DNA from: Escherichia coli
GTDB taxonomy: Bacteria > Pseudomonadota > Gammaproteobacteria > Enterobacterales > Enterobacteriaceae
Direction: 5' to 3' (one strand)
Length of the DNA stretch: 64,000 nucleotides
Assembly: GCF_024298765.1 (NCBI RefSeq)
Contig: NZ_CP101210.1
Position 1 is the first letter of the stretch. The number at the start of each line of letters is the position of its first letter. A program made the position numbers and the translations under genes. Positions 235-451 of this stretch are shown one piece after another. A model generated the notes under the pieces. The model searched no databases. It was not told the DNA's origin and worked only from the letters and a program-made list of their open reading frames with translations.

Positions 235-321
235 ACCCGGTGGTGATGTACCAGGCTGTTGTTACAGATTTTTAACTCCATGAAAACACTATGCAAACGC
301 AGCTATACCCGGGGTGTCCCC

Positions 322-350
322 TTGCGTTGTGCTTCCCAAGTTAATAGAAT
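322..350 (+). promoter_or_regulatory. Putative sigma70 promoter of the dynamin-like/patatin operon (-35 TTGCGT 322-327, 17-bp spacer, -10 TAGAAT 345-350)
   Basis: Hexamers read directly from sequence with canonical spacing, ~100 bp upstream of the ATG at 452. Confidence 0.35.
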
Positions 351-352
351 AC

Positions 353-394
353 ATCGATCGTTACTATCATATCGATCGTTATAAACGATCGTTT
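353..394. promoter_or_regulatory. Three tandem operator-like palindromes: ATCGATCGTTA (353-363), ATCGATCGTTA (371-381), AACGATCGTTT (384-394)
   Basis: Directly visible repeats, each centred on the palindrome CGATCG; positioned at or just downstream of the predicted transcription start. Confidence 0.45.
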
Positions 395-451
395 GTAGTA
401 AATGACCTCCTCCGTGGTTGTCATGAAAATGCGTCTCAGGAAGGTTAAATA

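What the first reader, a model, noticed from the sequence alone, without database searches (positions are those of the whole stretch)
300..451. Promoter overlapped by three tandem CGATCG-core palindromes upstream of the operon
A sigma70-like promoter (-35 TTGCGT 322-327, 17-bp spacer, -10 TAGAAT 345-350) is immediately followed by ATCGATCGTTA (353-363), ATCGATCGTTA (371-381) and the perfect 12-bp palindrome AAACGATCGTTT (383-394). Three closely spaced dyad-symmetric sites over the predicted transcription start are the classic layout of a repressor operator, suggesting the operon is tightly repressed, as expected for a toxic effector. No regulator gene is visible between the window start and the operon; the partial ORF at 1..234 or a trans-acting factor could be the binder. 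Each site also contains a PvuI site and a GATC Dam site.
Basis: seen in the sequence. Interest (0 to 1): 0.6.

Follow-up and report, generated by a model that had tools for sequence, protein, structure and literature searches.

The report
Antigen-43-type Dam/OxyR switch driving dynamin operon
The three GATC-containing repeats are a copy of the well-known E. coli antigen 43 on/off switch (OxyR repressor versus Dam methylase), which here sits directly in front of a dynamin-like GTPase/phospholipase operon, probably after loss of the antigen 43 gene, and so probably makes that operon switch on and off heritably.

Summary
The feature is not an orphan operator. It is homologous to the regulatory region of E. 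coli agn43 (flu/cah): same -35 TTG, same -10 TAGAAT, and three GATC sites starting 5 nt after the -10, downstream of the same YeeP-like GTPase gene. Positions 353-389 are the best match in the 64-kb window to the OxyR tetramer consensus (16/20; K-12 agn43 scores 14/20). The three GATCs lie at the same places in that site as in agn43, apart from a 1-nt shift of GATC-I.

In O157:H7 the order is GTPase, switch, cah, then the dynamin operon. The window lacks the agn43/cah 5'UTR and gene, with a junction near 400-410, so the switch is fused to a dynamin-like GTPase / RdcB-like / patatin operon. This arrangement occurs in 1985 of 5426 complete E. coli genomes, and the GATCs, -10 and -35 are invariant in eight diverged copies.

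Most likely mechanism: OxyR bound to unmethylated GATCs represses (OFF), and Dam methylation excludes OxyR (ON), giving heritable phase variation. I found no paper describing this regulation. It is a new member of a known kind and is untested experimentally.

The parts
1..234 (+). 3' end of a YeeP-family GTPase gene, the conserved upstream neighbour of agn43-type switches
   Evidence: 90% identity to the C-terminus of the O157 GTPase family protein. The same 3' end precedes flu in K-12. Annotated as a GTPase family protein or a truncated hypothetical protein in E. coli genomes.
322..327 (+). -35 hexamer TTGCGT
   Evidence: Aligns with -35 TTGTCC of K-12 flu and TTGCGT of O157 cah. Invariant in 8 dynamin-type copies.
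345..350 (+). -10 hexamer TAGAAT
   Evidence: Invariant in all 11 aligned switch sequences from E. coli, Citrobacter and Enterobacter. Lies 17 nt after the -35.
356..356 (+). Predicted transcription start (G of GATC-I), inferred by homology only
   Evidence: The annotated 5' end of K-12 isrC (the flu leader RNA) is the G of GATC-I (L002 3318). Rfam IS102/IsrC starts at L002 3316. 5'RACE in EC958 placed the agn43 operon start 228 bp upstream of the ATG (PMC4807369).
353..389 (.). Predicted OxyR tetramer site: half-sites ATCGATCGTTACTAT (353-367) and ATCGTTATAAACGAT (375-389) with a 7-nt spacer
   Evidence: 16/20 match to ATAGnTnnnAnCTAT-N7-ATAGnTnnnAnCTAT. This is the best match in the whole window on both strands; the next best is 14/20 inside gloB. 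The K-12 agn43 site scores 14/20 in the same register.
356..359 (.). GATC-I (Dam target, A357)
   Evidence: Invariant in all homologues. Occupies positions 4-7 of the OxyR site, against 3-6 in flu.
374..377 (.). GATC-II (Dam target, A375)
   Evidence: Same position in the OxyR site as in K-12 flu.
387..390 (.). GATC-III (Dam target, A388)
   Evidence: Same position in the OxyR site as in K-12 flu.
398..410 (+). Junction where homology to the agn43/cah leader ends and homology to the cah-dynamin spacer begins (inferred deletion scar)
   Evidence: Window 235-~405 aligns with the O157 cah upstream region (L003 5001-5170). Window 408-451 aligns with the O157 cah-dynamin spacer (L003 8285-8331). 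The IsrC/IS102 leader is present in K-12 (252.6 bits) but absent here (20 bits).
438..444 (+). Shine-Dalgarno AGGAAGG, 7 nt before the ATG at 452
   Evidence: Read. Identical in O157 upstream of the dynamin gene.
452..2848 (+). Dynamin-like GTPase, a CrfC/RdcA paralogue (first gene of the controlled operon)
   Evidence: NCBIfam NF007368 E=7e-170 over the full length but below the curated cut-off. P-loop GTMKAGKST and DTPG are present. Annotated as dynamin family protein.
2845..3750 (+). RdcB-family protein, overlapping stop/start with both neighbours
   Evidence: RefSeq annotation and ORF coordinates.
3747..4817 (+). Patatin-like phospholipase with intact GGG, GASIG and DGG motifs
4837..4853 (+). 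Terminator-like hairpin plus T-run after the patatin gene (possible operon end)

Best explanation
Window 322-397 is a copy of the agn43 (antigen 43, flu/cah) epigenetic phase-variation switch.

Proposed mechanism. A sigma70 promoter (-35 TTGCGT, -10 TAGAAT) starts transcription at about G356. A single extended OxyR tetramer site (353-389) overlaps the start and contains three Dam targets (A357, A375, A388). When the three GATCs are unmethylated, OxyR binds, blocks RNA polymerase and shields the GATCs from Dam, giving a heritable OFF state. If Dam methylates them after replication, OxyR cannot bind and the promoter fires, giving a heritable ON state. Cells switch stochastically at low frequency.

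What is different here. The switch does not drive antigen 43. The agn43/cah leader and gene are missing, probably through a roughly 3.2-kb deletion with its junction near 400-410. The switch is therefore fused, through a 96-nt leader, to the operon for a dynamin-like GTPase, an RdcB-like protein and a patatin-like phospholipase (452-4817).

Shown here: the sequence features, the homology, the OxyR-consensus match, the conservation, the genomic architecture and the prevalence.

Inferred: the transcription start, OxyR binding, methylation sensitivity, bistable expression of the operon, and the direction of the rearrangement (deletion rather than insertion).
For: (1) Homology. The window aligns with the K-12 flu and O157 cah regulatory regions through -35, -10 and all three GATCs, downstream of the same GTPase gene 3' end.

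(2) OxyR site. 353-389 is the best OxyR-consensus match in 64 kb (16/20), better than K-12 agn43 itself (14/20). GATC-II and GATC-III sit at identical site positions.

(3) Conservation. Eight dynamin-type copies 92-100% identical have 26 variable columns in the 217-nt spacer. None falls in the 24 nt of GATC I-III, -10 and -35 (hypergeometric P=0.039; core only, P=0.033). A variant that destroys the CGATCG hexamer keeps GATC.

(4) Architecture. O157 TR01 has GTPase, switch, cah, then dynamin, with no promoter-like or terminator-like site in the cah-dynamin spacer. The window joins the switch to that spacer, and the IsrC/IS102 leader is lost.

(5) Precedent. Genes downstream of agn43 (yeeR, irmA) are cotranscribed from this switch and are OxyR-repressed (PMC4807369).

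(6) Circumstantial expression data. In E. coli MP1 the homologous dynamin/RdcB/phospholipase operons were the most strongly differing genes between two strain lineages in every medium. The difference did not track the phage lysis-lysogeny decision, and it appeared together with the PAI-X hyxRAB operon, which I recall to be phase-variable (that regulation was not checked here). The authors state that regulation of these dynamins has not been described (PMC12922286). This pattern is what colony-to-colony phase states produce for agn43 (PMC3764049).

(7) Mechanism of the parent switch: PMC2909390, PMC4872104.

(8) Prevalence: 1985 of 5426 complete E. coli genomes, up to 3 copies per genome.
Against: There is no experiment on this locus: no start-site mapping, OxyR binding, methylation-state or single-cell expression data.

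The -35 matches consensus at only 3 of 6 positions, and the generic promoter scan did not report this promoter.

GATC-I to GATC-II spacing is 18 rather than the 19 of agn43/cah, which shifts GATC-I by 1 nt within OxyR half-site 1. The effect on methylation sensitivity is unknown.

The switch core is not more conserved overall than the flanking spacer across E. coli genomes: 896 records at >=99% identity for 340-400 against 1639 for 240-300. The selection signal rests on which positions vary, with P only about 0.03-0.04 from eight non-independent sequences.

Other deletion derivatives also keep the switch in front of unrelated genes (L009), so retention could be partly passive.

The MP1 expression difference has other possible causes, and I could not confirm that MP1 carries this exact spacer.
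Confidence: 0.75

Rival explanations
1. Relic without switching. The sequence is a leftover of the agn43 switch after the deletion. It may act as a weak constitutive promoter or be plainly OxyR-repressed, but it does not give heritable ON/OFF phase variation of the dynamin operon.
For: The core is not more conserved than the flanks. Several other deletion derivatives retain the switch in front of unrelated genes. The 1-nt change in GATC-I/II spacing and the 3/6 match at -35 might impair function.
Against: Every element recalled as essential for agn43 phase variation (promoter plus OxyR region with three GATCs) is intact, and the OxyR match is better than in K-12. Variable positions avoid the GATCs, -10 and -35. 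The arrangement is old (up to 8% divergence) and widespread. The MP1 transcriptome shows large lineage-to-lineage differences in these operons.
Confidence: 0.15
2. Dedicated repressor operator. An unidentified dimeric repressor recognises the three AACGATCGTT-like palindromes as three separate operators and keeps a toxic operon tightly off until a signal arrives.
For: There is a perfect 12-bp palindrome at 383-394 and two identical 11-mers at 353-363 and 371-381 overlapping the start site. 3x CGATCGTT is improbable by chance.
Against: No regulator gene is adjacent. The palindromic hexamer is not conserved, whereas GATC is: TGATCG occurs at site II in strain 82.0311 and CGATCA at site I in K-12. 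The homologous region in agn43 is an established OxyR/Dam target. The unequal 18/13 spacing fits one OxyR tetramer site rather than three phased operators.
Confidence: 0.05
3. RNA-level element. The inverted repeat 373-391 followed by TTTGT forms a leader hairpin that attenuates or terminates transcription before the operon.
For: The terminator scan lists CGATCGTTATAAACGATCG followed by TTTGTAGTAA. The hairpin appears in the minimum-free-energy fold.
Against: The leader fold is not better than shuffles (z=-1.43, with 18 of 200 shuffles folding as well). The T-run is poor. The equivalent palindromic GATC pair in agn43 is transcribed through into a >200-nt leader and a 3-kb gene. No Rfam family matches above threshold.
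Confidence: 0.03

Closest known systems
agn43 (flu) Dam/OxyR phase-variation switch of E. coli K-12, and the cah allele of O157:H7
   Same: Homologous DNA: same upstream YeeP-like GTPase gene, -35 TTG, -10 TAGAAT, and three GATCs beginning 5 nt after the -10. The GATC-II/III spacing of 13 is the same, and the OxyR tetramer site covers all three.
   Different: The cargo is a dynamin-like GTPase / RdcB-like / patatin operon instead of the Ag43 autotransporter. The >200-nt IsrC/IS102 leader is deleted and the leader here is 96 nt. GATC-I/II spacing is 18 rather than 19. OxyR half-site 1 is closer to consensus (8/10 against 6/10).
agn43-yeeR-irmA operon of uropathogenic E. coli (Moriel et al. 2016, PMC4807369)
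   Same: Non-adhesin passenger genes are expressed from the agn43 promoter and repressed by OxyR.
   Different: There the passengers lie behind agn43. Here agn43 is absent and the switch is fused directly to the operon, and the passenger genes are unrelated (YeeR shows no similarity to the dynamin).
Salmonella gtr and opvAB OxyR/Dam phase-variable operons
   Same: OxyR half-sites containing GATCs; methylation and OxyR binding are mutually exclusive; heritable ON/OFF states (PMC2909390; PMC4856963, listed).
   Different: Those have four GATCs and alternative activating and repressing OxyR sites upstream of the promoter. Here there is a single repressing site over the start, as in agn43, and no sequence homology was shown.
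RdcA (CrfC/YjdA)-RdcB GTPase system of E. coli K-12
   Same: The first two genes are paralogues: NF007368 E=7e-170 over the full length, and an RdcB-family annotation.
   Different: The score is below the equivalog cut-off (567 against 1146 bits), and identity is about 30% according to PMC12922286. The module is coupled to a patatin phospholipase, located on a genomic island, and has no known link to DgcE.

Membership tests
agn43-type Dam/OxyR phase-variation switch | Sequence homology to the agn43 regulatory region, located downstream of a YeeP-like GTPase gene on a CP4-44-like island | tested here: met
   Alignments; GTPase C-terminus 90% identical; island context with DUF905, DUF932, antirestriction, RadC, YeeU and CbtA genes at tRNA-Asp.
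agn43-type Dam/OxyR phase-variation switch | Sigma70 promoter whose start lies at the first GATC | tested here: inconclusive
   The -35 and -10 are positionally conserved with identical spacing to GATC-I. The start is inferred from the K-12 isrC annotation and Rfam IS102 and from 5'RACE in EC958. It has not been mapped for this locus.
agn43-type Dam/OxyR phase-variation switch | Three GATC sites within about 35 bp just downstream of the -10 | tested here: met
   356, 374 and 387; spacing 18/13 against 19/13 in flu and cah. Invariant in 8 dynamin-type copies.
agn43-type Dam/OxyR phase-variation switch | OxyR tetramer binding site overlapping the GATCs | tested here: met
   In silico only: 16/20 to the consensus quoted in PMC2909390, top score in the window, same register as K-12. 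Physical binding was not tested.
agn43-type Dam/OxyR phase-variation switch | Methylation abolishes OxyR binding; heritable ON/OFF states; locked OFF in dam mutants and locked ON in oxyR mutants | not testable with these tools
   Needs EMSA, reporter fusions or per-read methylation data. Only circumstantial RNA-seq evidence from strain MP1.
agn43-type Dam/OxyR phase-variation switch | Controls an Ag43-family autotransporter gene | tested here: not met
   The first gene downstream is a dynamin family GTPase. agn43/cah and its leader are absent.
IS102/IsrC RNA (Rfam RF00124, the agn43 leader) | Match to the covariance model above the gathering score of 46 bits | tested here: not met
   20 bits, E=0.39, on the wrong strand, against 252.6 bits for K-12.
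Known anti-phage defence systems (PADLOC 2.0, e.g. Eleos LeoA/LeoBC, CBASS phospholipase effector) | Significant profile matches of the operon proteins to the system's components | tested here: not met
   Only marginal hits: LeoBC E=1.6e-4 and phospholipase effector E=1.6e-4, with no stretch passing on its own; none for the RdcB-like protein.
RdcA/CrfC equivalog (NCBIfam NF007368) | Score above the curated cut-off of 1146 bits | tested here: not met
   566.7 bits over the full length: a paralogue, not the equivalog.

The most novel reading that the evidence does not exclude
A deletion that removed antigen 43 captured its Dam/OxyR epigenetic switch for a dynamin-like GTPase / RdcB-like / patatin-phospholipase module. 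This potentially membrane-damaging, possibly anti-phage or membrane-remodelling system would then be expressed in only a heritable subpopulation (bet-hedging) in about a third of E. coli strains, independently at up to three copies per genome. It would also mean that the reported 'prophage-induced' up-regulation of these operons in strain MP1 is a phase-state difference between clones rather than regulation by the phage.
Probability: 0.5. Interest if true: 0.6.

Novelty: new member of a known kind. Interest (0 to 1): 0.42.

Why it matters
The mechanism itself is textbook. What would be new is its target. The dynamin/RdcB/patatin operons of E. coli genomic islands have no described regulation (PMC12922286 says so explicitly). 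If they are phase-variable, three things follow.

First, bulk transcriptomics and mutant phenotypes for these operons will depend on which colony was picked, a pitfall documented for agn43 (PMC3764049).

Second, a candidate defence or membrane-remodelling module with a phospholipase effector would be under epigenetic bet-hedging control, like the opvAB and gtr phage-resistance loci of Salmonella.

Third, the YeeP-GTPase-plus-switch unit would appear as a reusable phase-variable expression cassette of this island family. It is found in front of at least four different cargos in E. coli, Citrobacter and Enterobacter.

The prediction is cheap to test with existing long-read methylation data.

Tried and rejected
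(1) GATC clustering as evidence: rejected. Ten GATC triples within 45 bp occur in the window, and uniform placement gives at least one with P=0.94.

(2) Whole-core conservation against flank across about 2000 genomes: no excess conservation of the core. Only the position of the variable sites is informative.

(3) RNA structure of the leader: not significant. Rfam: nothing above threshold.

(4) K-12 YeeR as a remnant of the dynamin gene: no similarity.

(5) The 154-aa secreted protein behind the switch in Citrobacter as IrmA, or as a homologue of window ORF 4907-5413: no PDB sequence hit and no similarity.

(6) PADLOC: the operon is not a catalogued defence system.

(7) Primary agn43 papers (Wallecha 2002 PMC135096, Kaminska 2010 PMC2838033) and the O104:H4 methylome (Fang 2012 PMC3879109) are not held. 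The statements that agn43 transcription starts at the G of the upstream GATC, that OxyR(C199S) protects -16 to +42, and that about 101 nt suffice for phase variation are therefore my recollection of the Wallecha 2002 abstract. They are supported only indirectly, by the isrC annotation, Rfam and the EC958 5'RACE.

(8) Literature searches linking OxyR or Dam to the dynamin operon: none found. The ST131 methylome paper lists no site-level unmethylated GATCs. The MP1 paper's supplements are not held.

(9) The second-best OxyR-like site, at 19176, lies inside gloB and is taken as chance.

(10) The genome contigs pattern scan required TAGAAT and the three GATCs. The Citrobacter and Enterobacter hits therefore show distribution and cargo diversity, not independent conservation of those bases.

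Full report
**1. Observation**

The sequence is exactly as described. It has -35 TTGCGT at 322-327, a 17-nt spacer and -10 TAGAAT at 345-350. It has ATCGATCGTTA at 353-363 and again at 371-381, and the perfect palindrome AAACGATCGTTT at 383-394. The repeat finder recovers the three-copy family with start-to-start spacing of 18 and 13.

CGATCGTT occurs eight times in the window on both strands, and four of those are here, against 2.44 expected for the entire 64 kb. GATC clustering as such is not unusual in this window: there are ten triples within 45 bp. The other clusters lie inside core genes (ldcC, dnaE, lpxD) or IS debris.

**2. Identity of the locus**

The window is E. coli chromosome: 100% identical to strain 104 and 99.9% to Nissle 1917, CFT073-like strains and ABU 83972. 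The region lies on a genomic island at tRNA-Asp.

ORF 1-234 is the 3' end of a YeeP-family GTPase gene (90% identity to the O157 protein). Downstream lie three genes with overlapping stops and starts:
- a dynamin-like GTPase (452-2848), a full-length paralogue of CrfC/RdcA that scores below the equivalog cut-off;
- an RdcB-family protein (2845-3750);
- a patatin-like phospholipase (3747-4817) with intact GGG, GASIG and DGG motifs.

A terminator-like hairpin follows at 4837-4853. The operon is not a catalogued defence system in PADLOC.

**3. Key result: homology to the antigen 43 switch**

In K-12 the same GTPase gene end is followed by the flu (agn43) regulatory region. The window aligns with it through TAATAGAAT, the first GATC, CTAT, TATCGATCGTT and the third CGATCG. 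The same holds for the following:
- the cah allele of O157:H7;
- two bona fide agn43 alleles;
- copies in Citrobacter braakii, C. amalonaticus and Enterobacter wuhouensis, found by a pattern scan of species-representative genomes.

[quoted passage not shown] Dam methylation of the GATCs abolishes OxyR binding and allows transcription. Competition between the two gives heritable ON and OFF states that switch at about 1e-3 to 1e-2 per generation. A dam mutant is locked OFF and an oxyR mutant is locked ON (PMC2909390, PMC4872104 and PMC3764049).

**4. Anatomy as an OxyR site**

I scored the consensus ATAGnTnnnAnCTAT-N7-ATAGnTnnnAnCTAT (half-site consensus as quoted in PMC2909390) over both strands of the whole window. 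The best hit is 353-389 at 16/20. The next best is 14/20, inside gloB. The K-12 agn43 site scores 14/20 in the homologous register.

GATC-II and GATC-III occupy identical positions in the site in K-12 and in the window (positions 22 and 35). GATC-I is shifted by one (position 4 against 3), because the window has 18 rather than 19 nt between GATC-I and GATC-II. This one-base difference is shared by all dynamin-type copies, and it makes half-site 1 closer to consensus (8/10 against 6/10).

The three 'palindromes' are therefore not three equivalent operators. They are three Dam targets inside one extended tetramer site. The conserved unit is GATC, not the PvuI hexamer: strain 82.0311 has TGATCG at site II, and K-12 has CGATCA at site I.

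**5. Transcription start**

The K-12 annotation places the 5' end of isrC, the flu leader RNA, on the G of GATC-I. Rfam IS102/IsrC begins two bases earlier. In EC958, 5'RACE placed the agn43 operon start 228 bp upstream of the ATG (PMC4807369); in K-12, GATC-I lies 222 bp upstream.

My recollection of the abstract of Wallecha et al. 2002 (J Bacteriol 184:3338; not retrievable here) is as follows. Transcription starts at the G of the upstream GATC. OxyR(C199S) protects -16 to +42. [quoted passage not shown] Transferred to the window, that gives a start at G356, a footprint of about 340-397 and a 96-nt leader. These are inferences.

**6. How the switch came to sit before a dynamin operon**

In O157:H7 TR01 the order is GTPase, switch, cah, then dynamin. 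The 110-bp cah-dynamin spacer has no promoter-like or terminator-like site. Window 235 to about 405 matches the cah upstream region. Window 408-451, including the Shine-Dalgarno AGGAAGG, matches the end of the cah-dynamin spacer.

The IsrC/IS102 leader body is absent from the window (20 bits against 252.6 bits in K-12). The simplest reading is a deletion of about 3.2 kb, with a short-homology junction near 400-410, just 3' of the predicted OxyR footprint. An insertion of cah in the opposite direction cannot be formally excluded.

All eight dynamin-type copies examined share the same junction, which suggests a single origin. Other derivatives exist:
- a contig in which the switch and part of the leader are fused to DUF905 and DUF932 genes (L009);
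- the Citrobacter and Enterobacter islands, in which the switch precedes an unannotated 154-aa protein with a signal peptide.

**7. Distribution and conservation**

The 217-nt spacer is present in 1985 of 5426 complete E. coli genomes, with up to three copies per genome, at 93-100% identity. In eight diverged copies, 26 columns of the spacer vary. None lies in the 24 nt of the three GATCs, -10 and -35 (P=0.039; within 340-400, 9 variable columns, P=0.033). This signal is modest and the sequences are not independent. Overall the core is not more conserved than the flank.

**8. Expression evidence from the literature**

Moriel et al. (PMC4807369) showed that yeeR and irmA, downstream of agn43, are cotranscribed from this promoter and derepressed in oxyR mutants. 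Passenger genes under this switch therefore have precedent.

[quoted passage not shown] This held in every medium and did not track the lysis-lysogeny decision. The same gene set included the PAI-X hyxRAB operon, which I recall to be controlled by phase variation. The paper's reference list cites it under an 'epigenetic regulation' title, but I did not check its regulation here. The authors state that regulation of such dynamins has not been described.

Differences of this kind between clonal lineages are exactly the artefact documented for agn43 (PMC3764049). I could not verify that MP1 carries this spacer, so this evidence is circumstantial.

**9. Rival explanations**

- A non-switching relic remains possible (0.15).
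- A dedicated palindrome-binding repressor is unlikely (0.05). The palindromes are not conserved while GATC is, no regulator gene is nearby, and the homologous DNA is an established OxyR target.
- A leader hairpin or attenuator is unlikely (0.03). The fold z-score is -1.43, and the equivalent sequence is transcribed through in agn43.

**10. Novelty and verdict**

Searches for OxyR or Dam together with this operon found nothing. The feature is a new instance of a thoroughly known kind of switch, attached to an uncharacterised cargo.

I rate the homology as near-certain. I rate functional phase variation of the dynamin operon at about 0.7-0.75. Overall interest is moderate: unsurprising in mechanism, but it yields a concrete, cheaply testable prediction about a widespread operon and about a published transcriptomic result.

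Noticed in passing
window 42316-42436; 47273-47300; 48285-48327; 52178-52335: Dense GATC clusters (up to 6 in about 120 bp) lie inside the coding regions of the core genes ldcC, dnaE and lpxD. They are not in promoters. They show that GATC clustering alone is not diagnostic of regulation in this window.
   Followed up: partly
L009 (JAIJJM010000733.1, 1560 nt): This contig is labelled as a Collinsella sp. MAG but carries E. coli-type island DNA: YeeP GTPase 3' end, cah-type switch, and DUF905 and DUF932 genes. It is probably a mis-binned enterobacterial contig. It also shows another deletion derivative, in which the switch plus part of the leader is fused to DUF905.
   Followed up: partly
L006 4551-5015 (-), L007 5114-5578 (-), L008 from 1072 (+): In Citrobacter braakii, C. 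amalonaticus and Enterobacter wuhouensis the same GTPase-plus-switch unit precedes a 154-aa protein with a signal peptide. That protein has no NCBIfam hit and no PDB sequence hit, and by sequence it is not IrmA. It may be another phase-variable secreted factor.
   Followed up: partly
window 452-4817: The operon pairs a CrfC/RdcA-like dynamin GTPase and an RdcB-like protein with a catalytically intact patatin phospholipase. PADLOC gives only marginal LeoBC and phospholipase-effector hits. Its function is unknown, though a membrane-acting defence or remodelling module is plausible.
   Followed up: partly
literature: PMC12922286 (E. coli MP1 transcriptome): The reported prophage-dependent up-regulation of the dynamin operons (and of PAI-X) may reflect different phase states of the two strain stocks rather than regulation by the Kapi1 prophage.
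   Followed up: partly
window 19176-19212: This is the second-best OxyR-consensus match in the window (14/20). It lies inside gloB and is probably a chance match.
   Followed up: no
window 1-234 and upstream in L014 4800-5234: The YeeP-like GTPase gene is 5'-truncated in this island (annotated as a 144-aa hypothetical protein) and frameshifted in several other strains. The switch downstream of it is nevertheless intact.
   Followed up: no
window 4837-4853: A terminator-like hairpin with a T-run lies immediately after the patatin gene. That suggests a three-gene transcription unit, whereas the MP1 paper reports a five-gene co-regulated cluster on its island 8.
   Followed up: no
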